A stretch of 64,000 nucleotides of DNA from Prorocentrum cordatum (Eukaryota): assembly GCA_963575745.1 (NCBI GenBank), contig CAUYUJ010000226.1, positions 62,001 to 126,000 of the forward strand, written 5' to 3'. Shown here in pieces: positions 7,561-18,841 of this stretch. Under the pieces are notes generated by a model. The model was given only the letters and a program-made list of their open reading frames with translations. It had not been told where the DNA came from and searched no databases. The translations under genes were made by a program, and so were the position numbers. Every line of letters begins with the position of its first letter. Positions within the stretch are counted from its first letter, which is position 1.

Positions 7561-8489
7561 TGTGCGGCTTCCGATGTCGCTCATGTTGTCTGCCGCGTCC
7601 CGTCGTGCCTGCCTTCTGGGGGGGCAACTTTGGTGGCCTCGGGGGGCCCCCCCCCCGGAGCCTTCTTCGGGGCCCCTGGCGTGGGCGCTGTGGGGGGGCC
7701 CTCCGAGGGCGTCTTTGGCGGCCTCTTGTGGGCAGCTTGGGGGCATGCTGGGCTCAAGTCGGGCCTGCCCCTCTGCACGAGGAATATTCAAAAGTAGTCC
7801 AAAAGTAGCCTGGGGACGATTTCTTGTGTATTTTTGATGGCCATGTTGTATCTGTGTTGCATTTTGGTGTATTTTTTTTCTCACTAGTTTGTATGCGCTT
7901 CGTCCAGAATCCCCCTGCAGGCGGACAGGCGCGACTGAATGCTGGGCGTCTTCGGGGCCATGCGCGGGGGCAGGGCCCCCCGGGGGCCGCCTGCCACCTG
8001 AGCGCTCGAGGACGCGCGCGGGCCGACGCGGTGCATCCTCGAACGCGCAGGCCAGCGTTTGCGTTTCAGCTGCGGCCGCATGTCCTTTTGCCCTGCATGT
8101 ACAATTCGAGCAACTTCGCCATCGCCTCGAACGACCAACTGCGAGCTCCTCCCTGCGGGGGGCCTCTCCGGCCTCCTGGGCAGCCTCTGGGGCCCGCTCT
8201 CCGGGGGCCCCCTCCGGGCCAGGCTGGGAGGCCTCTCGGGCCGCCCGTGGGGGCTCAGGGCACCGCGGTGGCGACCGCCATCGAGGACGCCCACGGCGAA
8301 ATGCCGCCGCCTCCTGCCTTGTGGAGTCGCCGATGCGGCCGAGCGTTGTGGCAAGCGCTCCGCCACGCTATCGGACCACGCGTTCCCCCAGCCGTTGTGG
8401 AAGCCCGTCGGGCAACACTTTGGGGAGAGGGCGGGGAAGATCAGGAGGAGGAGGGGGGGAGCAGGCGCAGCAGGAGGAGGAGGAGGAGG

Positions 8490-8999
8490 CTTCTTGGGAG
8501 CCTCGGGCTCTCTTGGGGTCTCCTGGGAGCTTCCTGGGAGCCTCGGGCATTTTGGGGCCTCCTTGGCCCGTCTGACGCCGTCGGGAGCCGTCTTGAGGGC
8601 CTCTCTTGGCCAACTTGGGGCCCTCTCGAGGTGCTCAAGGCCCTCTTGGAGGCCATTATGGGCGGAGGCCGGTTGTCTTGGCCCGTGTTGGGGCCATCCT
8701 GGAGTCCTTTTGGGCGATCTTGGGGCGATTTTTTGGGGCTCTTGGGCCGTCTCGGGCCGTTGGAAGGCCGACAGGAAGCACATGCCAAATTCCTATAACA
8801 ACGAAAGGAAATGCAACGATTTTAGTCTCTTAGGCCGTCTTGGGCTATCTTGGAGCCATCTTGGGCCGTCTTGGTGGGCTCCTGGCATGTCTGACGCCGT
8901 TGGGAGCCTCCTTGGGTGCCTCTCTGGGCCGACTTGGGGCTCTCTTGGGGTGCTGCAGGGCCTTCTTAGATGCCACTTTGGGCGTCTTGGAGGCCTCTT
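8490..8999. repeat. Degenerate GGCCTCTT/GGCCGTCTT satellite, resuming at 16085-16340
   Basis: Repeated 10-11-mers either side of the Copia insertion. Confidence 0.75.
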
Positions 9000-9157
9000 T
9001 GCTGGGAAGTTTGTAGTTTTACATATATATGTGATTATAGAGAATATAATCAGACTGTCCTGGAGGATCCAGGAAATCCTGCAGCCCTTTGTTGCTCGAG
9101 GAAAAGAGCGACCCTCACCTCCCCCCTTTCTCCGCGAGGGGGGTGGGTGCGCGTGCA
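9000..9157 (+). repeat. 5' LTR (158 bp)
   Basis: TGCTGGGAAG...GCGCGTGCA, identical by eye to 15927-16084. Confidence 0.97.
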
Positions 9158-9169
9158 TGGTAGCGGAGC
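9158..9169 (+). promoter_or_regulatory. Primer binding site, probably initiator tRNA-Met
   Basis: TGGTAGCGGAGC directly after the LTR; resembles the TGGTAGCAGAG/TGGTATCAGAGC iMet-type PBS. Confidence 0.8.
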
Positions 9170-9177
9170 TCGCTTGA

Positions 9178-11049
9178 GGTTCGCGGGCCGCTCCGCACCC
9201 CAGCGAGCTCCAGGAGCCCCTCGAGAGGGCCCAGCGGCGCGACGCCGCGGGTCCGGCAGCCAGCGGGACGATCCACGCGGCTGCCGAACGAAGTACCCCT
9301 TGCTGGTCAGAGCTGCGGTCAGACCCGCGCTCTGACAGCGGAGGCCAGCCAGCCAACAAGGGCAAGGGCAAGGCCACGCTGAAGGCCAAGAAGCCGAATA
9401 AGCGAGGAGGCAGAGCGGCGGACACGCGTGAGCACCGCCAGCTCCGAGGGACCGCCTTTAGGAAGCTTGCGGCGTGCGGCAGCAAGGCGAAGCTCACTCA
9501 GGAGGAGCGAGCAGCAGTGAAGAGGCAGCTGGCGAGCGACATCGAGAGGCTGGAGAAGCGTGTCGTTGACGTGCTCGACGCCGACCAAGATGGAGCAGCA
9601 GCTGCAGCAACTGGTCGATCAAGTTCAGAGACTGACGACGGAGAGTCAGAACATGAGGCAGGAGCTTCAGAACAGGGACGTGCAGATCGCAGAGATGAGA
9701 GGACAACTGCAGGGTCAGCAGCAGGCTCAGCAGCAGGCTCAGCAGCAGCGGGTAGCCCCGCGCGGCGAGATGATGGATCCGAAGATCCTTCACAAGGTGA
9801 AGCCGTTCGACGGCCAAAGGTCAAGCTGGAAGACGTTCAGCTTCCAGTACAGAGCGTACCTGATCGCCCAGGATCGGAGGTACCGAGATCTTCTGGAAAG
9901 GTGCGAGGACGGAGCCCAGGAGGTGGACAACGTCAACCTGGACCCGCAGGAGGAAGAACTCAGCACGCAGTTGTACTACGGCCTGGTCCTGGCCATGCCC
10001 GAGGACTCGGTGGGCGAGCTGATCGTGAGGAACAGCCCAGTAGGAGAAGGAGCCGAGTGTTGGAGGAAGCTTCAGAAGGAGTACAACCCGAGCGAGGCAG
10101 GCAACGTACTGGCGATGTGGACCAAGCTCACGGACACGAAGTTCGACGCCAAGGAAGACGTGATGGTGAGCATCAGCAAGCTGGACGAGGACATGGCGAG
10201 GTACCAGAAGATGGCAGGAGAGCCCGTCTCGGACCTGATCAAGCGCGGCATCCTCACAAAGGCGCTGAAGGATCACGACGAGCTCCAGAAGCACGTGTTT
10301 CGGAACAGCAGTCGGTTAAGTACGTACGAGCTTCTGAGAGCCGAGGTGGTGTCGGCGTTGGCGGCAGAGCGAGCGGTCCAGGACGACCCGATGGAGATCG
10401 GAGCGCTGAAGGGCGGAAAGAGACCGTGGAAAGGCCGCGGCAAAGGGAAAGACGGCAAAGGCAAGGAGAAGCCACCGAATCCCGACGCCGAGATCGAGTG
10501 CCACTACTGCCACAAGAAGGGTCACCGCAGCGCAAACTGCCGAAAGCGGATCGCCGACGAGAAGAAGACACCCGAGAAGGACAAGAAGGACAAGAAGCAG
10601 TTCCGAAAAGAGAAGGCAAAAGAAAAGAAGAAGATCGGGGCAGCGGCAGTCAGGGAGCTCGAAAGGTTACGACAGACAGGAGTGGGCACAGGATCAAGCT
10701 CGACAGCACCGACACAACAGATGCTAGGAAGTCAGGGAAGCGCCGACAGCGCGATGACTCAGCAGGTGCTGCGCCCAGTCAACTGTGCGCTGCGAGCGAA
10801 GATGATTCTGGCCCTGAGGGCAGAGGTCACAAGAAGCGCAGCCACACGATCGACTGGAAGTACTGCTTGCCTAGCTACTACCAATATGTATGCTGCTCTT
10901 GCAAGAAGACCTTTGAAGGATGGCGATGGCACTACGATCAGTGGAAGTTGGACTACTGTGCCGTGTGTGCCGAGTACTGCCTGGACGGCCTCAAGGACGG
11001 GGAAGAGCCAGACGACGACAAGAAGCCAAAGAAGCGCAAGAAAGGCTAG
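9178..11049 (+). CDS. Putative overlapping -1 frame ORF across leader and gag, ending in ZZ-like Cys motif and basic tail
   Basis: 623 stop-free codons with no internal ATG; protein-like ends (KLTQEERAAVKRQLASDIERLEKRVVDVL; CCSCKKTFEGWRWHYDQWKLDYCAVC...KKPKKRKKG). Confidence 0.5.
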   Translation, partial: GSRAAPHPSELQEPLERAQRRDAAGPAASGTIHAAAERSTPCWSELRSDPRSDSGGQPANKGKGKATLKAKKPNKRGGRAADTREHRQLRGTAFRKLAACGSKAKLTQEERAAVKRQLASDIERLEKRVVDVLDADQDGAAAAATGRSSSETDDGESEHEAGASEQGRADRRDERTTAGSAAGSAAGSAAAGSPARRDDGSEDPSQGEAVRRPKVKLEDVQLPVQSVPDRPGSEVPRSSGKVRGRSPGGGQRQPGPAGGRTQHAVVLRPGPGHARGLGGRADREEQPSRRRSRVLEEASEGVQPERGRQRTGDVDQAHGHEVRRQGRRDGEHQQAGRGHGEVPEDGRRARLGPDQARHPHKGAEGSRRAPEARVSEQQSVKYVRASESRGGVGVGGRASGPGRPDGDRSAEGRKETVERPRQRERRQRQGEATESRRRDRVPLLPQEGSPQRKLPKADRRREEDTREGQEGQEAVPKREGKRKEEDRGSGSQGARKVTTDRSGHRIKLDSTDTTDARKSGKRRQRDDSAGAAPSQLCAASEDDSGPEGRGHKKRSHTIDWKYCLPSYYQYVCCSCKKTFEGWRWHYDQWKLDYCAVCAEYCLDGLKDGEEPDDDKKPKKRKKG

Positions 11050-14000
11050 ATTCGTCGCTGACGACCGTCAGTGCTGCGATATGCCAGCTGCGGTGAGCCC
11101 CGCGCTGGCCGGCCCCAGGCCTGTTACCATCGCTGGTCTTCGGCCCGTGGATGAAGATCAGAGCCCTGCGGATGACCGATTGCGGTTAGCCCCGCTTCGG
11201 AATGCGATCATGCTCGATTCAGGTGCGCAGATCAGTGCGATACCGAGGTCACAGGTGACCAAGCACAACTACACGCCGACGGACAGCAACGTTGTCGGCT
11301 TGAAGGGCATAGGAGGCGAGGAGATCGAGAGGTACGGCCACGTGGAGCTGAACCTATCCCGAGGAGGAGAGGTTATTCAAGTCGGTGCTGAGGTTGCCGA
11401 TGTGGAGTACCCAGTTGTGGCTACAGACGCTGTAGTACAACGTGGTCAGAGTGTTCTTCATAGCCCTGCAGGTCACTGGATCATCAACGGTACCATCGAG
11501 CCACCTGACGGAGCTGAGTTCGTACCTCTACGTCGTCACCAAGGCAACTACTACTTAGAGTACGATCACATCATCGACGGCCAGACTCAACCAGAAGCTT
11601 CAAAGGTAGCTGCGGTACGAAAGACACTACCAAGGAAGGTACCAGCTGAACAGGAAGCTGGAGCTTTGCCGAAGGTTCTAGGTCCCGAAGCTGATGAGAC
11701 CACAACTGTGCCAACGAGAGTGTTGAAGACTCCTCACCAACCTAGTGCTGCGGAGAGAGCCGCGCACGAAGGGCATCATCTACCTTTTCGGCCTTGGTGT
11801 CCCATCTGCGTGCAGGCTCGAGCAGACGATGACCCCCACCACGCTCAGGAACCAGCTGATGAGAACAAGATCCCGAAGGTGGTGTTCGACATCTTTTACG
11901 TAGGGACAGACCAGCTGGCTGCGAAGTACAAGCTTAAAGGAGGTTACTTCAGCATCAGGGAGAAGACATCGGTCACGAAGGCCGAGTTAGACCAAGCGGT
12001 CTCTGTCTTGAATGTTATCGACTGTAAGATCTTGGCTCAGGCGACGTTGTACGCGAACAAGGAGACGGATGACTACAAGGTGTCCTTCCTGCTAGGCGTG
12101 CTGGAAGCTTGGGGTCACACAACAGTCATACTTCAGACAGACCAGGAGCCTGCCACCATGGCTCTGGCGCAGGCAGTTCGAGATCGCAGATCACACTCAA
12201 CCTTGGTGCGGGGATCACCGCCCTTTTCCAAGCAGAGTGCAGGCTACGCTGAAGGAGGTAACAAGCTAGCTGCTGGTCTACTTCGAGCCTACAAGCTGAA
12301 GCTGGAGCACAAGCTGGGCAGCGAGATCAAGATGACGGATCCGATCGTGCCATGGCTTGTGAACTCAGTGGGGTGGATGATCACCAGATTCCAGCCTCGC
12401 AGTCACGGAGGTTCCTCCTACAAGATGCTCTACGGCAAAGAGTACAACGGCGAGATTGCGGAGATGGGTGAGCAGGTCTGGTATCGGATCTCAGCCCGAG
12501 TTGCCGCGGGACGTGGCAAATGGGAAGCCCGCTTCGCAAAAGGAATCTGGGTTGGTAAGAGCGAGCTGGACGACACACATCTCGTGATCGATCCTGAACG
12601 TGGAGTGCAGAAGGTGAGAACGGTGCGAAGGATGCCTGAGGAGTTCAGGTGGCAGCCCGAGCTCATCCAGCACATCAGGGTGACGCCCTGGAAGCAGACG
12701 CCCGACAAGAGTTCAGGAACGATCGGACGCAGCATGTACATCACGGAGCGCATGATCGATGCTCATGGTCCTACCGACGATTGCAGGAAGTGCAGTACAG
12801 GATACGGTTCGCATTCGGCAGCCTGCCGACAGCGTTTCGAGACCATTCAGGCCGACTTGCTGCGCGAGAAGTTGGCGAAGGACCCTGTGGCCCCTGAGGC
12901 TACAGTCGTGGTGCCAGCGCCGGCTGCGGGAAGCCCCGCGCCTGGAGCCGCACCCGGAGGAGCAGCGGCATCAAGAAGCAGTGAGGTTGCGGTGAGCCCC
13001 GCACCTGCTGCCAGTGACGTAGCTATGGTTCCTGGCCCAGGAGAGGCTGAGGTGCAGACAGCCATGGACACGGAGAGTGGAGAGCTCAGGAGCGACTTTC
13101 GGCGAAGTGCCCCAGGTGAAGTTCGTGAAGGAGCTGAGGTCAAGAAGCCCAGGGTAGCAAGCATTGGGCATCTCTCTGTCTGTGAGTTGGCAGTCTGCGA
13201 GGAGGGCTACGACGAGAGCTTCGACCCCATGTGGGATCCACACCCAAAGCGCAGTGCGAGATGTTCCGAGAGGTGTGAGAAGCACTCATCACGATGCCAG
13301 CTACGAGAATGCCACCAAGCTGAGTGTGCATGCAGGAGATGTTTGATGAGCCACATCGGCACAATCAGGAGCCACTTCGGAGATCCTGAGGAGCAGCAGG
13401 TGGAGCAGATGGTTGAGGTGAGCGCCGAGCTGCATGAGAAAGACCAGTGGAGCCCAAAGACGATACACTACGATTACTACACTGGAGAGCCTCTGGATGA
13501 GGACCTGTATCAGAAGGGTCGCGACGACGAGCTGCAGGCCATGAAGGACTACGGGGTCTACGTGGAAGTGGCGACATCGACGGCGACCGACGGCAAGCAC
13601 ATTGGAGGTTTCCCGATAGCCCACATGAAAGAAGGAAAGGTCAGGTGGAGGTTCGTAGCAACCGAGGTGAACAAGTACGAGGTCAGGGAGGACAACCACC
13701 AAGGCACGCCCCCGCTCATGATTGTCAGAGCGACGCTGAGCCGTGCCGCTTCAAGTCCAACTTCCAGCGGGCAGCACCTGCGGAAGATACAAGTCTGGGA
13801 CGTCAGGAAGGCTTTCTTCAACGCTGACTTAGACGAGACGATCTACGTGCATCCTGGGAGAGAGCTGTGTCCGCCTGGAAGGTGCTGGTGGTTACGCAAG
13901 GCCATGAACGGTACCAGGAAGGCGTCGCAGATGTGGGGTGAGCTTGTGAGAACTACTATGGACGACGGCCATTGGGAATGCTTGGTTGGAACTCCTAACG

Positions 14001-15715
14001 TGTTCTACTTACCTGCTAGCCCCAACACAGCCCCCTTCGACGAGGATAGCACAGCGATCTGCCATGGCGATGACTTTCTTGCTGAAGGCTACGACGAGCA
14101 GCTGGACGAGCTGGACGAGTTGTTGAAGCAGCAGTTTGAGGTCACGGCCAGCGCCAGACTTGGACCAGGAGCGGTGGGGCAGACTACATACCTCAAGAGG
14201 ACGATCGGCTACACCGACAAGTTGCCAGGTTGCGAGGAGCCAGGTTTCTTCTGGACTGCCGATCCTAAGCATGTGGACTTCATGATCAAGTGGACGCAGA
14301 AGCGAGGTTGTAAACCAGCTCCCACTCCAGGGACGAAAGCTACAGGACAAGGCCGACGAGACAGCCTAGACCTTCTTTCCAAGGATCGTGCTCGAGAAGT
14401 GGCGGGTGCAGCTGGCACCGCTCTTTACCTTTCTTCGGACAGGCCCGACACGATGTACGCCAGCAAGACAGCGATGCAGCACGTCTCCAACCCGAACGTC
14501 TTGATGCATGCGCGTGTTCAGCGACTTGGAAGGTACTACGAAGGACAGCCTGTGTTGGTCTGGTGTTACCCACTTCAAGGTACTCCTGAAGGCATTCGTG
14601 TAGATGGTGACGCAGATTGGGCACCTACGAGTGAACTACAGCGGCGATCTACCAGTGGAGGAGCTGTGAGGTATGGTGACCACACTTGGGACTGCTACTC
14701 AGTGACGCAGAGTACGATAGCCCTAAGTTCAGGGGAATCCGAGATGTACGCTACGGGAAGTGCGACAGCCAGAGGACTTCAGTGTAAGACTTACCTGATC
14801 GAGACCCAGAGGCCCTGCAACCTGAAGATCTATAGTGACAGCACAGCTGGACGTGGCATGTGCAGTCGAGTTGGGGTGGGCAAGGTCAGGCACCTGGAGT
14901 TGAGGTACTTGTGGATTCAGGAGCGGTTGCGTCTCAAGGCGTTCGAGCTGCACAAGGAGGACACCAGCAAGATGACAGCCGACATGCTCACGAAGTACAG
15001 CGAGTGGCCGACAATCGAGAAGCATTGCACCACTCTCAACCTCAGGTTCGGAAAGCAGTTGAAGGGCTTGAGCGCAATGGCAGTTTTCACGGAGGTCGTG
15101 ACGAAGGCGTCAGGCGAGAAGGTGACAGTGTACGGAGGTTCTGACGAGGTTGCGGTTTGCCCCGCGCCTGTCAGCCACTACGTGGACAGCGAGGAGTTCT
15201 GGTTCTTCCTGAAGTTGGGACTAGTTGTGGTGACTGCAGCCAGTGCTTTCTTACTGGGGTGCTGGTGTGGTTGTTACTTCAAGGACTTCTACGACAAGTT
15301 CCTCCTCCAGGGTGCGGTTGACCCCGCCTCTGGAAGCACGTGTATACCATCTGCGCGGGCTGACGTCGAGTTCAAGACCGTGTGTGTACAGCAGGACAAA
15401 GGAGCAAGGCACAAACTCTTAAGCACGTTTCTTGTAGCTGAGCTGCGAGCTGTCTTGAAGGCCAAGAGCCTGGCCGTGTCAGGGATCAAGGAGGACCTGG
15501 TCACGAGGATGATCAAGCACGGATGCGTTCTGTCGGATCGCCAGGCCAAGGAGATCGAGCAGCTGCGAGTGATGGCTACAGCGCGAGGACCTCTTACCAA
15601 GCTCAGCTTGCAGGACATCAGCAGTCCAGAGGCCGCGCAGAAGTGGATCGAGACGTTCAAGAGCGAGTGCGGAGACCGTTCCAGAGGCTCTCAGGTGATC
15701 CACGGAGAGGGCTAG
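9590..15715 (+). CDS. Copia Gag-Pol polyprotein (2041 aa from first ATG) with C-terminal TM + SAP-like extension
   Basis: Zn knuckle CHYCHKKGHRSANC (10499-10540); protease LDSGA (~11213); integrase H..HH.P...WCPIC (11765-11809), FD, TDQEP, YAE; RT WDVRKAFF (~13796), HGDDF (~14063); RNase H DADWA, SSGESE, YSDS, ADMLTK (14600-14995); no stops. Confidence 0.95.
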   Translation: MEQQLQQLVDQVQRLTTESQNMRQELQNRDVQIAEMRGQLQGQQQAQQQAQQQRVAPRGEMMDPKILHKVKPFDGQRSSWKTFSFQYRAYLIAQDRRYRDLLERCEDGAQEVDNVNLDPQEEELSTQLYYGLVLAMPEDSVGELIVRNSPVGEGAECWRKLQKEYNPSEAGNVLAMWTKLTDTKFDAKEDVMVSISKLDEDMARYQKMAGEPVSDLIKRGILTKALKDHDELQKHVFRNSSRLSTYELLRAEVVSALAAERAVQDDPMEIGALKGGKRPWKGRGKGKDGKGKEKPPNPDAEIECHYCHKKGHRSANCRKRIADEKKTPEKDKKDKKQFRKEKAKEKKKIGAAAVRELERLRQTGVGTGSSSTAPTQQMLGSQGSADSAMTQQVLRPVNCALRAKMILALRAEVTRSAATRSTGSTACLATTNMYAALARRPLKDGDGTTISGSWTTVPCVPSTAWTASRTGKSQTTTRSQRSARKARFVADDRQCCDMPAAVSPALAGPRPVTIAGLRPVDEDQSPADDRLRLAPLRNAIMLDSGAQISAIPRSQVTKHNYTPTDSNVVGLKGIGGEEIERYGHVELNLSRGGEVIQVGAEVADVEYPVVATDAVVQRGQSVLHSPAGHWIINGTIEPPDGAEFVPLRRHQGNYYLEYDHIIDGQTQPEASKVAAVRKTLPRKVPAEQEAGALPKVLGPEADETTTVPTRVLKTPHQPSAAERAAHEGHHLPFRPWCPICVQARADDDPHHAQEPADENKIPKVVFDIFYVGTDQLAAKYKLKGGYFSIREKTSVTKAELDQAVSVLNVIDCKILAQATLYANKETDDYKVSFLLGVLEAWGHTTVILQTDQEPATMALAQAVRDRRSHSTLVRGSPPFSKQSAGYAEGGNKLAAGLLRAYKLKLEHKLGSEIKMTDPIVPWLVNSVGWMITRFQPRSHGGSSYKMLYGKEYNGEIAEMGEQVWYRISARVAAGRGKWEARFAKGIWVGKSELDDTHLVIDPERGVQKVRTVRRMPEEFRWQPELIQHIRVTPWKQTPDKSSGTIGRSMYITERMIDAHGPTDDCRKCSTGYGSHSAACRQRFETIQADLLREKLAKDPVAPEATVVVPAPAAGSPAPGAAPGGAAASRSSEVAVSPAPAASDVAMVPGPGEAEVQTAMDTESGELRSDFRRSAPGEVREGAEVKKPRVASIGHLSVCELAVCEEGYDESFDPMWDPHPKRSARCSERCEKHSSRCQLRECHQAECACRRCLMSHIGTIRSHFGDPEEQQVEQMVEVSAELHEKDQWSPKTIHYDYYTGEPLDEDLYQKGRDDELQAMKDYGVYVEVATSTATDGKHIGGFPIAHMKEGKVRWRFVATEVNKYEVREDNHQGTPPLMIVRATLSRAASSPTSSGQHLRKIQVWDVRKAFFNADLDETIYVHPGRELCPPGRCWWLRKAMNGTRKASQMWGELVRTTMDDGHWECLVGTPNVFYLPASPNTAPFDEDSTAICHGDDFLAEGYDEQLDELDELLKQQFEVTASARLGPGAVGQTTYLKRTIGYTDKLPGCEEPGFFWTADPKHVDFMIKWTQKRGCKPAPTPGTKATGQGRRDSLDLLSKDRAREVAGAAGTALYLSSDRPDTMYASKTAMQHVSNPNVLMHARVQRLGRYYEGQPVLVWCYPLQGTPEGIRVDGDADWAPTSELQRRSTSGGAVRYGDHTWDCYSVTQSTIALSSGESEMYATGSATARGLQCKTYLIETQRPCNLKIYSDSTAGRGMCSRVGVGKVRHLELRYLWIQERLRLKAFELHKEDTSKMTADMLTKYSEWPTIEKHCTTLNLRFGKQLKGLSAMAVFTEVVTKASGEKVTVYGGSDEVAVCPAPVSHYVDSEEFWFFLKLGLVVVTAASAFLLGCWCGCYFKDFYDKFLLQGAVDPASGSTCIPSARADVEFKTVCVQQDKGARHKLLSTFLVAELRAVLKAKSLAVSGIKEDLVTRMIKHGCVLSDRQAKEIEQLRVMATARGPLTKLSLQDISSPEAAQKWIETFKSECGDRSRGSQVIHGEG

Positions 15716-15917
15716 GAGAATGGTCGCAGGAAGCACTACGACAGCCGAAGGTGAGCTTTCTTTTACAGGCTGCGGTTTGCCCCGCGCCTGCCCTCTGCGG
15801 GTAGCCCCGCGATGGGCTTAGGCGGGCAGCGCCGTTGCGAAGCCTGCTCAGGGAGCACAAAGTGGTTTCCCTGTGGCTCACGTTTCTCGACTGGAGGCCG
15901 AGCCGCTTCCAGCGCCC

Positions 15918-15926
15918 AAGGAGAGG
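15918..15926 (+). promoter_or_regulatory. Polypurine tract
   Basis: AAGGAGAGG immediately before the 3' LTR. Confidence 0.85.
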
Positions 15927-16084
15927 TGCTGGGAAGTTTGTAGTTTTACATATATATGTGATTATAGAGAATATAATCAGACTGTCCTGGAGGATCCAGG
16001 AAATCCTGCAGCCCTTTGTTGCTCGAGGAAAAGAGCGACCCTCACCTCCCCCCTTTCTCCGCGAGGGGGGTGGGTGCGCGTGCA
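15927..16084 (+). repeat. 3' LTR (158 bp)
   Basis: Identical to the 5' LTR, followed by TSD CTCTT. Confidence 0.97.
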
Positions 16085-16467
16085 CTCTTGGGACGTGTTA
16101 GGGCCCATTCGGGCCCTCTTGAAGGCCTCTTGAACCGTTTTGGGGCCATCCTGAAGGTCTCTTGGGCGATCTTGGGGCGATTTTTGGAGGCTATTGGGCC
16201 GTCTCGGGCCGCCGCAAGCGAAGACAAATCAATGATTTTGGCTTCTTCGGGCCTTCCTGGAGGCCCTCTTGGAGGCCTCTTGGGCCGTCTTGGAAGCCTC
16301 TTCGGGGCCTCTTGGGCCCTCGTTGGCCGTCTGGGAGGTTTCACGAGGCGTCACGGAGACGATGCGTTTTGGCGTCCTCCCCGTGGGGCTTCACCGCTAG
16401 GTGCGCCGCGCAACGTGTCACCCGCCCGCTGAAGGTGCCAGGTTCTCAAATTCTTTACGCTTCGCGT

Positions 16468-18841
16468 ATCCCCACCAGCCCATCTCACAGCAGCAACTCT
16501 TGCGAAGCATGCCGACAGTCGTGTTTTTCAGGCGTGTGTCCGCTTGGCCCCGCATATCTCCCCTGTTCCTCGTTCCTCCCGCCTCCTTGTACATCCTCCT
16601 TGTGGGGGGAGCGGGAGGAGGACGAGGCGGAGGAGGAGGGAGAGAGAGCGCTCCTCGTGATTTGAGTCGTTTGGGGTTTCTCGTCCTGGTATGAGTCGTT
16701 CGGGCCCTTCTTCCTGGTGTGAGTCGTTCGGGCTCTTCGTGGTGTGAGTCGTTCGGGCTCTTCGTCCTGGTGTGAGTCGTTCGGGCTTCTCGTGGTGTGA
16801 GTTGTTCGGGCCCCTCATCCTGGTGTGAGTCGTTCGGGCCCCTCTCCTGGTGTGACTCGTTCGGGCTCCTCGTGGTGTGAGTCGTTCGGGGCCCGCGTCG
16901 TGGTGTGAGTCGTTCGGGCTCCTCGTTGTGTGAGTCGTTCGGGCGCCTCGTCCTGGTGTGAGTCGTTCGGGCCCTTCCTTGTGGTGTGAGTCGTTCGGGC
17001 TCCTCGTGGTGTGAGTCGTTGGGGTCTCTCGTCCTGGTGTGAGTCGTTCGGGCTCCTCGTGGGGCCTCTTGGGGGCCTCTTGGAGCCTCTTGGGGCCTCT
17101 TGGGGCCTCTTGGGGGCCTCTTGGGGGCCTCTTGGGGGGCCCCTTGGGGGCATCTTGGAGCCTCTTGGGGCCTCTTGGGGGCCTCTTGGAGGCCTCTTGG
17201 GGACCTCTAGGGGCCTCTGGGGGGCCTCTTGGGGGCCTCTTGGAGGCGTCTTGGGAGCCTCCTGGGGGCCTCTTGGGGCCATCTTGGGGCCTCTTGCGAC
17301 CTCCTCAGAAGCGCAGATGAGCGCTGCCCCCTGAGAAGGACAAAATCAGCCCAAAACTTTTTTTGTAAAATCAATGATTTTGCTATGAGGGAAGATGAGC
17401 GCGGCCCCCTTCAGAAGGCCAAAATGGGGCCAAAACCCTCGTAAAATCAATGTGTTTGGCTTCAAAGACGAGCTGAGGCGCCAAACTCCCCCCCCCCCCC
17501 TGGGGCCAGAATCCTCGTGAGGGTCGTCGTTTTTTGGCCCTCCAAGGAGTCGAAAAAGACCCCCCTGACGACGCTCGGGACTCCCTCTCCAGGTCCAGGG
17601 GGAGGGGGTAAGGGGGAGGGGTGAACCCCTCCCCGAAGGGGAAGAAGGGGGGTTGAGGACAGAGAGAGCTCGCTAAACCACTCACGCCCAAAGGGCTGGT
17701 GGGATTGGCCACTTGTTGTTATGATGCATGTTTCACTCCTTGCCCCATTGGCCCCGCCCTCGTTGTAGCAGCGTTGTGGCGGCTATCGCTCGAGGACATG
17801 CAGGCACGCCAGCGATAATGCGAGTGTTCGCGTCTGTGTGCGTTGCAGATATGTGAGTCGTTCCAGCTCTTCGTGGTATGAGTCGTTGGGGCCCCTCGTC
17901 CTTCCTTGTGTAACTCCTTCGGGCCCCTCATTGTGTGTACGTCGTTCGGGCTCCTCGTGGTGTGAGTCCCCTCCTTGTGTGTGAGTCGTTCGGTCCCCTC
18001 CTCCTGGTGTAACTCGTTCGGGCTCCTCGTGGTGTGAGTCGTTGAGGGCCCGCGTCGTGGTGTGAGTCGTTCGGGCTCCTCGTGGTGTGAGTCGTTCGGG
18101 CGCCTCGTCTTGGCGTGAGGCGTTCGGGCCCTTCCTTGTGGTGTGACTCGTTCGGGCTCCTCGTGGTGTGAGTCGTTGGGGTCTGTCGTCCTGGTGTGAG
18201 TCGTTCGGGCTCCTCGTTGGGCCTGTTGGGGGCCTCTTGGAGCTCTTGGGGCGTCTGGGGGGCCTCTTGGGGGCGTCTTGGGGGCTTCTTGGAGCCTCTT
18301 GGGGCCTCTTGGGGGCCTCTTGGGAGCCTCGAGGGGACCTCTAGGGCCCTCTGGGGGGCCTCTTGGGGGCCTCCTGGAGGCCTCTTGGGAGCCTCCTGGG
18401 GGCCTCTTGGGGCTATCTTCGTGTCTCTTGCGACCTCCTCAGAAGCGCTAATAAGCGCTGACCCCTGAGAAGGACAAAATCAGCCCAAAACCTTCGTAAC
18501 ATCAATGATTTTGCTAAGAAGGAAGAGGAACGCGGCCCCCTTCAGAAGGCCAAAATGCGGCCAAAACCGTAGTAAAACCATTTTTTTTACTTCAACGACG
18601 AGTTCAGGCGCCAAACTCCCTCCCCCCCCTCGGGGCCAGAATCCTCGTGAGGGTCGTCGTTTTTTGGCCCTCCCAGGAGTCGAAAAAGACCCCTCCAACC
18701 ACCCGCGAGGCCCCCTCTCCAGGTCCAGGGGGAGGGGGTAGGGGGAGGGGTAAACCCCTCCCCGAAGGGGAAGAAGGAGGGTTGGGGGGTTGAGGACAGA
18801 GAAAGCTCGCTAAACCACTCACGCCCGAAGGGCTGGTGGGA
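16468..18841. repeat. Duplicated ~1-kb compound repeat (TGTGAGTCGTTCGGGC array + GGGGCCTCTT array + conserved tail)
   Basis: Blocks ~16650-17705 and ~17853-18841 are colinear and both end GGGCTGGTGGGA; inverted CCCACCAGCCC at 16471. Confidence 0.8.

What the first reader, a model, noticed from the sequence alone, without database searches (positions are those of the whole stretch)
15050..15715. Pol extends past RNase H into a transmembrane helix and a SAP-like DNA-binding domain
Seen: after ADMLTK the ORF runs ~240 more codons with a hydrophobic helix FWFFLKLGLVVVTAASAFLLGCWCGCYF (15197-15280), then LSTFLVAELRAVLKAKSLAVSGIKEDLVTRM (15419-15511) and a short helical tail (SDRQAKEI...SPEAAQKWIE). 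Known: the SAP consensus is L..LKV.ELK..LK.RGL..SG.K..LV.RL, and Copia Pol normally ends shortly after RNase H. Inference: a membrane anchor plus DNA tether, possibly docking the element at the nuclear envelope or chromatin, which is notable in a host with closed mitosis.
Basis: partly seen in the sequence, partly recalled or inferred. Interest (0 to 1): 0.8.

Follow-up and report, generated by a model that had tools for sequence, protein, structure and literature searches.

The report
Membrane-anchored SAP tail on dinoflagellate Copia
A young, intact Copia retrotransposon of a dinoflagellate has, fused to the end of its polymerase, a conserved membrane anchor followed by a DNA-binding SAP domain; related dinoflagellate elements share this design, which may tie the element or its DNA to the nuclear envelope.

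Summary
The ORF belongs to an intact, very recent Ty1/copia element (window 9000-16084; 158-bp identical LTRs, 5-bp target duplication). It runs 215 codons past the point where canonical Copia Pol ends. The extension is a conserved module. It has a short signal-peptide-like hydrophobic stretch, an acidic ~32-aa stub, a strong TM helix with a Cys cluster and a variable linker. It ends in a SAP domain (Pfam 24.2 bits; 18 of 28 relatives hit SAP; model 0.8 Å from Tho1 SAP) and a conserved three-helix C-terminal domain.

Of 118 RT-RNase H relatives, 29 carry a TM-containing tail. On an RT-RNase H tree the 28 that were kept all lie on one side of a well-supported branch (Prorocentrum, Symbiodinium). 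Different C-terminal heads follow the anchor: SAP, a topoisomerase-type Zn ribbon, or an HCCC Zn motif. Flank charges place the head on the cytoplasmic or nucleoplasmic side in 23 of 24 tails. Stand-alone versions exist with the hydrophobic stretch at their N-terminus.

The anchor plus DNA-binding head is supported. Nuclear-envelope docking remains inference. I found no description in six literature searches. I rate it a new variant of a known kind.

The parts
8995..8999 (+). Target-site duplication CTCTT (left copy)
   Evidence: Read directly; same 5 nt at 16085-16089.
9000..9157 (+). 5' LTR, 158 bp, TG...CA ends
   Evidence: 100% identical to 15927-16084.
9158..9169 (+). Primer-binding-site-like TGGTAGCGGAGC directly after the LTR
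   Evidence: Sequence read. The match to an initiator tRNA 3' end is recalled and was not tested.
9590..15715 (+). gag-pol ORF (2041 aa from the first Met, plus stop)
   Evidence: Retrotran_gag_2, zinc knuckle, Asp protease, RVT_2. HHCC and D, D, E integrase motifs lie at aa 729-891.
14978..15049 (+). End of RNase H (ADMLTK ... NLRF); canonical Copia Pol ends 5-11 aa beyond this
15068..15100 (+). H1: short hydrophobic, signal-peptide-like stretch LSAMAVFTEVV, with a basic N-flank (net +3) and a TKA/SG small-residue site after it
   Evidence: 21 of 24 tails have such a stretch. It sits at the N-terminus of the stand-alone relatives.
15101..15196 (+). Acidic ~32-aa stub between H1 and the TM helix, with a conserved AVCPAP...HYVDSEEF; predicted lumenal
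   Evidence: AlphaFold2 confidence is low here.
15197..15280 (+). Transmembrane helix H2, ending in the Cys cluster GCWCGCYF (15257-15280)
   Evidence: Kyte-Doolittle 2.06. pLDDT 91-93. N-flank net charge -3, C-flank 0.
15281..15403 (+). Variable linker with in-frame indels between subfamilies
15404..15517 (+). SAP domain (helix, extended loop, helix)
   Evidence: Pfam 24.2 bits. PDB profile hits. pLDDT 91-97. 0.8 Å over 35 columns to Tho1 SAP.
15536..15694 (+). Conserved helical C-terminal domain (..RQAKEI..LR..A..RG....L.D..SPEAA..WIE..K.EC)
   Evidence: Conserved across the group. pLDDT 79-96. Only generic three-helix matches, Z up to 6.4.
15918..15926 (+). Polypurine tract AAGGAGAGG abutting the 3' LTR
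15927..16084 (+). 3' LTR
16085..16089 (+). Target-site duplication CTCTT (right copy)

Best explanation
The extension is a selected accessory module of one group of dinoflagellate Ty1/copia elements: a membrane anchor carrying a nucleic-acid-binding head.

Shown:
- The element is intact and young.
- The module starts exactly where canonical Copia Pol ends.
- Its parts, in order: a short signal-like hydrophobic stretch (H1), an acidic stub, a strong TM helix (H2) with a juxtamembrane Cys cluster, a variable linker, a SAP domain, and a conserved three-helix domain.
- The same scaffold occurs across the group, with different C-terminal heads.

Inferred:
- H1 enters the ER membrane with its N-terminus in the cytosol, and H2 stops transfer.
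- Pol and the SAP head therefore both face the cytoplasm or nucleoplasm. They stay joined by a hairpin, or host signal peptidase cuts after H1 and frees a small type-I membrane protein.
- The head binds DNA, either host chromatin at the nuclear envelope or the element's own cDNA. This holds the replication or pre-integration machinery at the ER and nuclear-envelope membrane, in a host whose envelope never breaks down.

The architecture is well supported. The localisation and the benefit to transposition are not tested.
For: Element:
- Identical 158-bp LTRs, target duplication CTCTT, PBS-like and polypurine tracts, one open gag-pol frame.

Conservation of the tail:
- Against P0007 the tail is 47-80% identical per 40-aa window. 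The enzymes are 88-100% and the gag-protease linker 5-12%.
- Indels in the tail are in frame.
- 33 library proteins match at E<=1e-3. They include P0033, at 29% identity, with the RNase H end, TM, SAP and C-terminal domain in one frame.
- A 1589-nt contig of run X9 spans RNase H to SAP with 53 substitutions and no gap. Only one low-depth indel lies in the tail, against five in RT-RNase H.
- Among the 40 of 213 variants shown, the tail has 9 synonymous and 11 non-synonymous changes; RT-RNase H has 10 and 2.

Distribution:
- 29 of 118 relatives have a tail of 100 aa or more with Kyte-Doolittle >=1.8.
- On a FastTree of 107 RT-RNase H rows, all 28 TM rows lie on one side of a branch with 99% support. 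The label needs 2 changes, against a shuffled mean of 25.1; 0 of 500 shuffles were as low.

Heads behind the anchor:
- SAP in P0058, P0062, P0064, P0065, P0067 and P0068, up to 43.7 bits.
- A SAP-like variant in the P0053 group (hhalign probability 97.3%).
- Zn_ribbon_Top1 in P0059 (E 3.5e-7).
- An HCCC motif in 6 proteins, with sub-threshold Ada_Zn_binding matches.

Topology:
- The C-flank is more positive than the N-flank in 23 of 24 tails. H1 is present in 21 of 24.

Stand-alone forms with H1 at the N-terminus:
- L001 has in-frame stops upstream.
- 10 of the 10 proteins in the P0037 cluster are about 200 aa or shorter, and 9 begin at the same Met.

Fold:
- pLDDT 91-97 over the SAP and C-terminal domain.
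- SAP lies 0.6-0.8 Å from solved SAP domains.
Against: - No experiment or RNA data. Expression, processing, membrane insertion, DNA binding and localisation are all untested.
- SAP in the window copy only just passes Pfam's cut-off (24.2 against 23.9 bits) and falls below it in the full polyprotein (20.8 bits).
- H1 is short and contains a Glu in the window's subfamily (Kyte-Doolittle 1.79). AlphaFold2 gives it low confidence (pLDDT 40-48). No signal-peptide or TM predictor was available.
- If H1 does not insert, SAP would be lumenal and could not meet DNA.
- The tail evolves faster than the enzymes: rough dN/dS about 0.4 against about 0.07, from a truncated variant list.
- SAP domains can also bind RNA or proteins (recalled).
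- A membrane-bound Pol is hard to reconcile with packaging inside a virus-like particle.
- The tree is FastTree only. Two long-branch rows without a tail (P0072, P0090) sit on the same side as the tail carriers.
Confidence: 0.55

Rival explanations
1. The tail is a small fusogen-like or trafficking membrane protein, comparable to reovirus FAST proteins and the sORF2 of Drosophila MDG1-group LTR elements. It would help capsids pass between cells, for example at gamete fusion, or across membranes. The SAP head would be secondary.
For: The layout is shared: a tiny N-terminal ectodomain (~32 aa), one TM helix in an N-out, C-in orientation, juxtamembrane Cys residues that could be palmitoylated, and a longer cytoplasmic tail. 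sORF2 and FAST features were read as passages in PMC11952523. Stand-alone forms of about 165-200 aa exist.
Against: The cytoplasmic part is a high-confidence SAP fold, and sister lineages swap it for Zn DNA-binding-type modules. That argues for nucleic-acid binding as the selected function. The juxtamembrane basic patch is weak in the window copy (net charge 0). There is no myristoylation motif, and here the module is fused to Pol rather than a separate ORF. The host is unicellular.
Confidence: 0.1
2. Only the strong helix inserts, as a type II signal anchor after the large cytosolic Pol. The SAP and C-terminal domain then end up in the ER lumen as an env-like or lumenal domain, and SAP does not bind DNA.
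For: A folded N-terminal polyprotein of about 1,830 aa cannot cross the membrane, so a single-span insertion would put the C-terminus in the lumen (general membrane-protein knowledge). H1 is weak in the window copy. Env-like ORFs after pol are known in plant Sireviruses (search listing only).
Against: Charge bias favours a cytoplasmic C-flank in 23 of 24 tails, and the stub before the TM helix is acidic. H1 is conserved with a basic N-flank in 21 of 24 tails. All three kinds of head resemble nucleic-acid-binding modules. The C-terminal part is small and has no features of a fusion protein.
Confidence: 0.1
3. The module is a captured host gene, a small membrane protein with SAP, that rides along or acts in regulation. 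For example it could sequester Pol on membranes to limit copy number. It would not promote integration.
For: Stand-alone homologues not joined to Pol exist (L001; the P0037 cluster). The tail evolves faster than the enzymes. TEs are known to acquire accessory domains: SAP in Zisupton and in a Chlamys Penelope-like element (passage in PMC8557442), and DNMTs in dinoflagellate retrotransposons (abstract of PMC5890265).
Against: The tail is retained across a deep group at 24-38% identity, and heads are exchanged on the same scaffold. That is hard to explain for a passenger. The data cannot separate a regulatory role from a promoting one.
Confidence: 0.15
4. The extension is a neutral read-through or an annotation artefact in a GC-rich genome, where long spurious ORFs are common.
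For: The window is 61% GC and holds many long ORFs in several frames.
Against: Motifs are conserved in 33 library proteins. SAP is found by Pfam, by a PDB profile and by fold. Indels are in frame. The tail is restricted to one side of the tree. The fold is predicted with high confidence.
Confidence: 0.02

Closest known systems
Canonical Ty1/copia (Pseudoviridae) elements, including the Ty1-copia-like SmTCL elements of Symbiodinium microadriaticum (PMC5776459, passages read)
   Same: LTRs, a 5-bp target duplication, gag with a zinc knuckle, protease, integrase before RT-RNase H, and a Copia-type RT (RVT_2).
   Different: Canonical Pol ends 5-15 aa after RNase H (36 of 79 relatives without a TM tail). 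Here 215 further codons encode a membrane anchor, SAP and a helical domain. The SmTCL paper lists RT, integrase, RNase H and LTRs only; 'transmembrane' and 'SAP' do not occur in its text.
TE-encoded chromatin or DNA-targeting accessory domains: the chromodomain of chromoviruses and the Ty5 targeting domain (recalled); SAP in Zisupton DNA transposons and in the Chlamys-1_pPol Penelope-like element (PMC8557442, passage)
   Same: A mobile element adds a chromatin- or DNA-binding domain to its own enzyme. SAP has been recruited by TEs before.
   Different: Those domains are soluble and sit on or inside the integrase or RT. Here the DNA-binding head lies behind a signal-like stretch and a TM helix at the end of RNase H, so it is predicted to be membrane-tethered.
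Inner-nuclear-membrane proteins with helix-extension-helix DNA-binding domains: the LEM/HeH family, Src1/Heh1, MAN1, emerin (PMC4810098, search listing and abstract only; the rest recalled)
   Same: A SAP/HeH-type fold joined to a membrane span. Small extralumenal domains of this kind can be retained at the inner nuclear membrane by binding DNA (recalled).
   Different: No sequence relation beyond the generic fold. No LEM or MSC domain was found. The order is reversed, with the TM helix before the head. It is encoded by a retrotransposon. Localisation is untested.
FAST proteins of reoviruses and sORF2 of Drosophila MDG1-group LTR retrotransposons (PMC11952523, passages)
   Same: A small single-pass accessory membrane protein of a capsid-forming element, with a tiny ectodomain, an N-out/C-in orientation, a lipid-modification motif near the membrane and a longer cytoplasmic tail.
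   Different: Here the module is fused in frame to Pol. Its cytoplasmic part is a folded SAP plus three-helix domain, not amphipathic motifs. The host element is Copia, not Ty3/gypsy. No fusion evidence exists.
Internal signal peptides in viral polyproteins, such as the flavivirus and hepacivirus capsid-envelope junctions (recalled)
   Same: A hydrophobic stretch in the middle of a polyprotein, followed by small residues at -3 and -1 and then by a TM protein.
   Different: Not known for LTR retrotransposons as far as I recall. Cleavage here is only inferred from sequence pattern.

Membership tests
Ty1/copia LTR retrotransposon | Direct LTRs with TG...CA ends and a 5-bp target-site duplication | tested here: met
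   158-bp LTRs, 100% identical, and CTCTT on both sides.
Ty1/copia LTR retrotransposon | PBS after the 5' LTR and a polypurine tract before the 3' LTR | tested here: met
   TGGTAGCGGAGC at 9158 and AAGGAGAGG at 15918-15926. The tRNA complementarity is recalled and was not tested. No tRNA gene lies in the window.
Ty1/copia LTR retrotransposon | Copia-type RT (RVT_2) and gag (Retrotran_gag_2) | tested here: met
   The window copy is below the cut-offs (26.3 against 31.6 bits; 24.1 against 27). Relatives in the same group pass, for example P0058 at 71.3 bits and P0059 at 72.6 bits.
Ty1/copia LTR retrotransposon | Integrase upstream of RT | tested here: inconclusive
   No rve hit at E<=10. An HHCC-like motif at aa 729-743 and D770, D854, E891 lie between the protease (aa 543-607) and the RT (aa 1400-1463). 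The motif assignment is by eye.
SAP domain (PF02037) | Profile match at the curated cut-off | tested here: met
   24.2 bits against 23.9 on the tail; 20.8 bits in the full protein. 18 of 28 relatives match, best E 2.9e-10. Relatives in the same group reach up to 43.7 bits. The PDB profile hits Tho1 SAP at 7.8e-7.
SAP domain (PF02037) | Helix, extended loop, helix fold | tested here: met
   AlphaFold2 pLDDT 91-97. Foldseek matches: Tho1 0.8 Å over 35 columns, Hcc-1 0.6 Å over 34, E1B-AP5 0.7 Å over 30. E-values are weak (0.4-1.5) because the domain is small. Rho N-terminal domain Z 5.3.
SAP domain (PF02037) | Binds DNA or nucleic acid | not testable with these tools
   Needs a gel-shift or similar assay.
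Single-pass membrane anchor | Hydrophobic helix of about 19 aa or more | tested here: met
   Kyte-Doolittle 2.06 over 19 aa, the only such segment in 2041 aa. A helix spans residues 67-107 of the tail, pLDDT 91-93. No dedicated TM predictor was available.
Single-pass membrane anchor | Charge bias that defines orientation (positive-inside rule) | tested here: met
   The C-flank is more positive than the N-flank in 23 of 24 non-redundant tails.
Cleavable signal peptide (H1) | Basic n-region, hydrophobic h-region of 7-15 aa, small residues at -3 and -1 | tested here: inconclusive
   The pattern is seen in the window (..KQLKG LSAMAVFTEVV TKA/SG) and more cleanly in relatives (AMA/QG, VSA/QP, AKA/QQ, AAA/QP). 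No SignalP-type scoring was possible, and the motif has low specificity.
Cleavable signal peptide (H1) | N-terminal position | tested here: not met
   H1 is internal in the window, about 1,830 aa from the start. It is N-terminal only in the stand-alone relatives (L001; P0037 cluster).
LEM/HeH inner-nuclear-membrane proteins | LEM, HeH or MSC domain homology | tested here: not met
   Pfam reports only SAP in the tail at E<=10. PDB profile hits are SAP proteins.
LEM/HeH inner-nuclear-membrane proteins | Inner-nuclear-membrane localisation | not testable with these tools
   Needs imaging or fractionation.
FAST / sORF2-like small fusogens | Separate small ORF (about 75-200 aa) with an N-out/C-in TM helix, a lipid-modification motif and a polybasic patch | tested here: inconclusive
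   The orientation and the Cys cluster fit. However, the module is fused to Pol, the basic patch is weak (net charge 0 in the window) and there is no N-myristoylation motif. Stand-alone relatives exist.
Sirevirus-type env-like ORF | Separate ORF downstream of pol in plant Copia elements | tested here: not met
   Here the module is in frame with Pol and no stop separates them. The host is a dinoflagellate. Only 211 nt lie between the stop and the 3' LTR.

The most novel reading that the evidence does not exclude
The tail is a self-contained, signal-peptide-led type-I membrane protein: signal peptide, short lumenal stub, TM helix, palmitoylatable Cys residues and a DNA-binding head. It was fused to Copia Pol at the base of a dinoflagellate lineage.

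Host signal peptidase releases it as the polyprotein is made, as happens in flavivirus polyproteins. Its small head lets it diffuse to the inner nuclear membrane, where DNA binding retains it. The retrotransposon would then plant its own receptor or tether on the nuclear envelope, to capture its cDNA or pre-integration complex, or to pick chromatin attached to the envelope.

The DNA-binding head is an exchangeable cassette: SAP, a topoisomerase-type Zn ribbon, or an HCCC Zn module.
Probability: 0.2. Interest if true: 0.85.

Novelty: new variant of a known kind. Interest (0 to 1): 0.68.

Why it matters
LTR retrotransposons are known to steer integration with soluble add-ons such as chromodomains. 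Some Ty3/gypsy elements carry envelope or small fusogen-like proteins. A Copia lineage whose polymerase ends in a membrane anchor with an exchangeable DNA-binding head would be a third kind of accessory solution.

It occurs in dinoflagellates, whose nuclei keep their envelope through mitosis and hold permanently condensed chromosomes (PMC10449503, passage). It is unknown how a pre-integration complex reaches DNA in such nuclei.

The finding gives a concrete, testable candidate. The window copy has identical LTRs and an open frame, so it is probably active. The module is about 215 aa, small enough to tag and express.

The finding also marks out a group of elements in Prorocentrum and Symbiodinium for TE annotation. 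Automatic names currently read only 'SAP domain-containing protein' or 'Pol polyprotein'.

Tried and rejected
- Whole genome: none is held. Copy number and flanks of other copies could not be studied.
- Metagenome DNA for relatives:
  - Alignment A3 was too divergent for patterns.
  - A4 gave 458 pattern matches but no relative.
  - P0038 gave one 1012-nt locus.
  - The viral-contig scan with A4 found no relative.
  - A formal dN/dS on aligned coding DNA was therefore not possible.
- Sequencing runs: no RNA holder is listed. All four runs laid are contigs, so they give no transcript ends and no splice or trans-splice evidence.
- ESM Atlas: no usable hit.
- NCBIfam: no hit for the tail or for the HCCC tails.
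- HCCC motif: only sub-threshold matches. Ada_Zn_binding matched 3 of 5 sequences, best E 0.0052 at 17.2 bits against a cut-off of 23. The solved Ada N-domain scored E 0.22, and ribosomal L28 scored slightly better at E 0.088. I do not name this module.
- Fold search of the whole tail: only the long helix matched (Z 4.8 or less).
- Fold search of SAP plus the C-terminal domain: the C-terminal part matched only generic three-helix bundles (Z 6.4 or less). Foldseek found nothing at E<=0.001. No function is assigned to the C-terminal domain.
- Long-protein search with the tail profile: only the Prorocentrum family and one unnamed protein (7 hits). The wider group appeared only when I searched with RT-RNase H.
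- Literature: searches found no description of a TM or SAP tail on Copia Pol. bioRxiv supplements are closed and subscription journals are not covered.
- Read-through artefact: considered and rejected (see rival explanations).


Full report
**The sequence and the element**

The stop-to-stop frame 9521..15715 (+) is 2064 codons long. From the first Met at 9590 it encodes 2041 aa.

Pfam finds these domains in the polyprotein:
- Copia-type gag, E 2.8e-5.
- A zinc knuckle.
- An aspartyl protease, E 0.011.
- RVT_2, E 6.9e-6.

No rve model matched. By eye, an HHCC-like motif and D770, D854 and E891 lie between the protease and the RT.

The frame sits inside an intact LTR element:
- Two 158-bp direct repeats, 9000-9157 and 15927-16084, are 100% identical and run from TG to CA.
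- They are flanked by the 5-bp duplication CTCTT.
- TGGTAGCGGAGC follows the 5' LTR directly, and AAGGAGAGG abuts the 3' LTR.

Identical LTRs and an open frame indicate a very recent insertion. The nearest proteins are named Prorocentrum cordatum by their sources. The window holds no second copy, and no genome is held.

**Check of the observation**

The helix at 15197-15280 is the only strongly hydrophobic segment of the polyprotein. Its Kyte-Doolittle mean is 2.06 over 19 aa, and the next best segment elsewhere scores 1.25.

SAP support:
- On the 241-aa tail, SAP scores 24.2 bits, just above Pfam's cut-off of 23.9. In the full protein it scores 20.8 bits, below the cut-off.
- 18 of 28 aligned tail relatives hit SAP, best E 2.9e-10.
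- A profile of the tails finds solved SAP domains: Tho1 at 7.8e-7, MKL1 at 2.9e-6, Hcc-1 at 1.3e-4 and Ku70 at 5.4e-4.
- AlphaFold2 models the SAP and the region after it at pLDDT 91-97.
- Foldseek superposes the model on Tho1 SAP at 0.8 Å over 35 columns and on Hcc-1 at 0.6 Å over 34. E-values are weak (0.4-1.5) because the domain is small.

**Conservation in other copies**

A search with the tail found six long proteins. Four are 92-99% identical in the tail. Two are diverged: P0007 at 63% and P0008 at 59%.

Against P0007, identity per 40-aa window is as follows:

| Region | Identity |
|---|---|
| Enzymes | 88-100% |
| Tail | 47-80% |
| gag-protease linker | 5-12%, with long gaps |

The tail therefore evolves faster than the enzymes but is clearly constrained. 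Its indels are in frame and confined to the linker.

I laid contigs of four public runs on 13500-16084:
- One 1589-nt contig (run X9) crosses RNase H, the TM helix and the start of SAP with 53 substitutions and no gap.
- In the tail there is a single low-depth 1-nt insertion (depth 5.5 of 52).
- RT-RNase H has five 1-nt deletions, all in run X1.

Only 40 of 213 variant positions were printed. Among these the RT-RNase H part has 10 synonymous and 2 non-synonymous changes. The tail has 9 and 11, the latter including a stop-to-Gln change. That gives a rough dN/dS of about 0.07 against about 0.4. This is a truncated, best-supported subset and not a proper estimate.

**Distant relatives and anatomy of the module**

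A full HMMER scan of 1.84 billion representatives with the tail gave 33 proteins at E<=1e-3 and 12 at E<=1e-10. Most are short pieces from unnamed metagenome or transcriptome records.

P0033, at 29% identity, shows the RNase H end, the TM helix, SAP and the C-terminal domain in one frame. P0030, P0037, P0038 and P0039 carry the TM helix, SAP and the C-terminal domain in 165-202 aa.

The aligned architecture is as follows:
1. H1, a short hydrophobic stretch (window LSAMAVFTEVV, 15068-15100). Basic residues precede it and small residues follow it (TKA/SG).
2. An acidic stub of about 32 aa.
3. H2, the TM helix, ending in a Cys cluster (GCWCGCYF).
4. A variable linker.
5. SAP.
6. A conserved ~55-aa helical domain (..RQAKEI..LR..A..RG....L.D..SPEAA..WIE..K.EC).

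Modelled alone, SAP plus this domain reaches pLDDT 81.4 and pTM 0.63. The C-terminal part matches only generic three-helix bundles, Z 6.4 or less. I assign it no function.

**Stand-alone forms**

The one metagenome locus I could fetch (L001, 1012 nt) encodes P0038. In-frame stop codons lie upstream of it, and its Met is followed at once by the H1-like stretch.

The ten proteins of the P0037 cluster are 173-202 aa, on contigs of up to 3401 nt. Nine start at the same Met, directly before H1. I could not see their DNA.

So the module also exists apart from Pol, with H1 at the extreme N-terminus, where a signal peptide would sit.

**Survey of Copia Pol C-termini**

A search with RT-RNase H (aa 1380-1830) returned 513 proteins at E<=1e-10, of which the best 120 were listed. 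118 could be aligned at the RNase H end.

29 of these 118 have an extension of 102-463 aa containing a segment with Kyte-Doolittle 1.8 or more.

Among the 79 tail-less rows kept for the tree:
- 36 end 15 aa or less after RNase H.
- 12 have 16-99 extra residues.
- 31 have 100 or more extra residues without a hydrophobic helix.

I built a FastTree of RT-RNase H with 107 rows. These were the window plus 106 of the 120 proteins; 14 were dropped for covering under 80% of the region or lacking its end, among them the tail carriers P0057 and P0061. The tree used 431 columns.
- All 28 rows with a TM tail are on one side of a branch with 99% support, together with two long-branch rows without a tail (P0072, P0090).
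- All 77 other rows are on the other side.
- The label needs 2 changes, against a shuffled mean of 25.1; 0 of 500 shuffles were as low.
- The tree is unrooted and FastTree joins long branches readily, so a single origin is likely but not proven.

Named members come from Prorocentrum cordatum, Symbiodinium natans and Symbiodinium sp. CCMP2592. One identical fragment also bears a Polarella glacialis label.

**Exchangeable heads**

All tails in this group share H1, the stub and the TM helix, but they end differently:
- SAP in P0058 (E 1.4e-4), P0062 (32.2 bits), P0064, P0065 and P0067 (28-30 bits) and P0068 (43.7 bits).
- A SAP-like variant with a 3-aa insertion in the P0053-P0057 and P0061 group. 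The hhalign probability against the window group is 97.3%, E 1.7e-11. Rho_N matches weakly in P0053 (E 0.017).
- A topoisomerase-type Zn ribbon in P0059 (30.4 bits against a cut-off of 32, E 3.5e-7).
- An H-C-C-C motif in P0069, P0070, P0073, P0075, P0076 and P0077. This motif gives only sub-threshold matches to the metal-binding domain of Ada: 3 of 5 sequences, best E 0.0052, and PDB E 0.22. NCBIfam finds nothing.
- No recognisable head in P0063, P0066 and P0132.

SAP occurs on several deep branches of the group. It is plausibly the older state.

**Topology**

In 24 non-redundant tails (of the 29; near-identical ones were dropped), the 15 residues after the TM helix are more positive than the 15 before it in 23 cases. 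The N-flank ranges from -3 to +1 and the C-flank from 0 to +5.

H1 has a Kyte-Doolittle 11-aa mean of 1.79 or more in 21 of 24 tails. Two or more Cys residues lie at the C-terminal end of the helix in 11 of 24.

By the positive-inside rule (general knowledge), the head faces the cytoplasm or nucleoplasm and the stub faces the lumen. For Pol to stay cytosolic, H1 must insert with its N-terminus in the cytosol. The two segments would then form a hairpin, or signal peptidase would cut after H1. Relatives show AxA-like sites such as AMA/QG, VSA/QP, AKA/QQ and AAA/QP.

This step is inferred. H1 is weak in the window copy and poorly modelled (pLDDT 40-48), and no signal-peptide predictor was available.

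**Most likely mechanism, and rivals**

I think the module anchors a nucleic-acid-binding head to ER and nuclear-envelope membrane, on the cytoplasmic or nucleoplasmic face. It may stay attached to Pol or act as a released small protein. It would serve to hold the element's replication or integration machinery, or its cDNA, at the envelope or on envelope-attached chromatin (confidence 0.55 for the module as described; lower for the envelope role).

Rivals:
- A FAST- or sORF2-like transfer protein (0.10; PMC11952523, passages read).
- A lumenal, env-like orientation (0.10).
- A captured host gene with a regulatory or passenger role (0.15).
- An artefact (0.02).

**What is known**

- SAP has been reported in TEs: Zisupton, and a Physarum Penelope-like element (PMC8557442, passage).
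- Dinoflagellate retrotransposons have acquired DNMTs, but Copia 'lacks any DNMT domain' (PMC5890265, passage).
- Symbiodinium Copia elements were described with RT, integrase, RNase H and LTRs only (PMC5776459, passages).
- A 2024 review of dinoflagellate genomics says nothing on accessory domains of Copia (PMC11453091, passages).
- Six full-text searches found no paper describing a membrane-anchored or SAP-bearing Copia Pol. Subscription journals and bioRxiv supplements were not covered.
- Automatic annotation already names some copies 'SAP domain-containing protein'. The SAP hit itself is therefore not new; the anchor, the group and the head exchange appear to be.

**Verdict**

This is a new variant of a known kind, a Copia lineage with a membrane-tethered DNA-binding tail. 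Interest is 0.68: the architecture is solid and surprising, and the mechanism is untested.

Noticed in passing
window 9178-11049 (+), especially 10801-11046: A second frame overlaps gag. Its last ~80 aa are Cys-rich, with a weak Zn_ribbon_8 match (E 0.033). P. cordatum gene models P0003-P0006 splice this frame into gag-pol. In the same place the main frame is only 5-12% identical to P0007, with 32 gaps. It may be an overlapping or frameshift-accessed Zn-ribbon at the gag-protease junction.
   Followed up: partly
Proteins P0079-P0164 (not in the window): 31 of 79 Copia relatives without a TM tail still have 100-500 extra residues after RNase H. They cluster in one 34-row group of the RT-RNase H tree. 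Their content was not examined.
   Followed up: no
window 8002-9000 and 16090-18500: The element sits inside tandem repeats, with 11-nt GGGGCCTCTTG-type and 28-, 53- and 81-nt units. The duplicated target CTCTT is part of that repeat unit. One insertion cannot show a target preference.
   Followed up: partly
L001 1-1012: The stand-alone TM-SAP ORF lies between (TAGC)n runs. It is flanked by a ~50-nt imperfect direct repeat (about 85-130 and 918-975). This could be a small repeat-bounded unit or a tandem gene array.
   Followed up: no
window 15713: In one contig of run X2 the stop TAG reads CAG. Fragments P0009 and P0012 have longer C-termini. The end of the ORF therefore varies between copies.
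   Followed up: partly
Tails of P0063-P0077 and P0132: The TM helices of the Symbiodinium-type tails carry a conserved His in a [LV]H[IL]LA motif in place of the Cys cluster seen in the Prorocentrum family.
   Followed up: no
window 1-64000: The window is 61% GC and rich in trinucleotide arrays ((GAG)n, (TCC)n, (GAT)n, (AGG)n). It has many long ORFs in overlapping frames. ORF length alone is therefore weak evidence of coding here.
   Followed up: no
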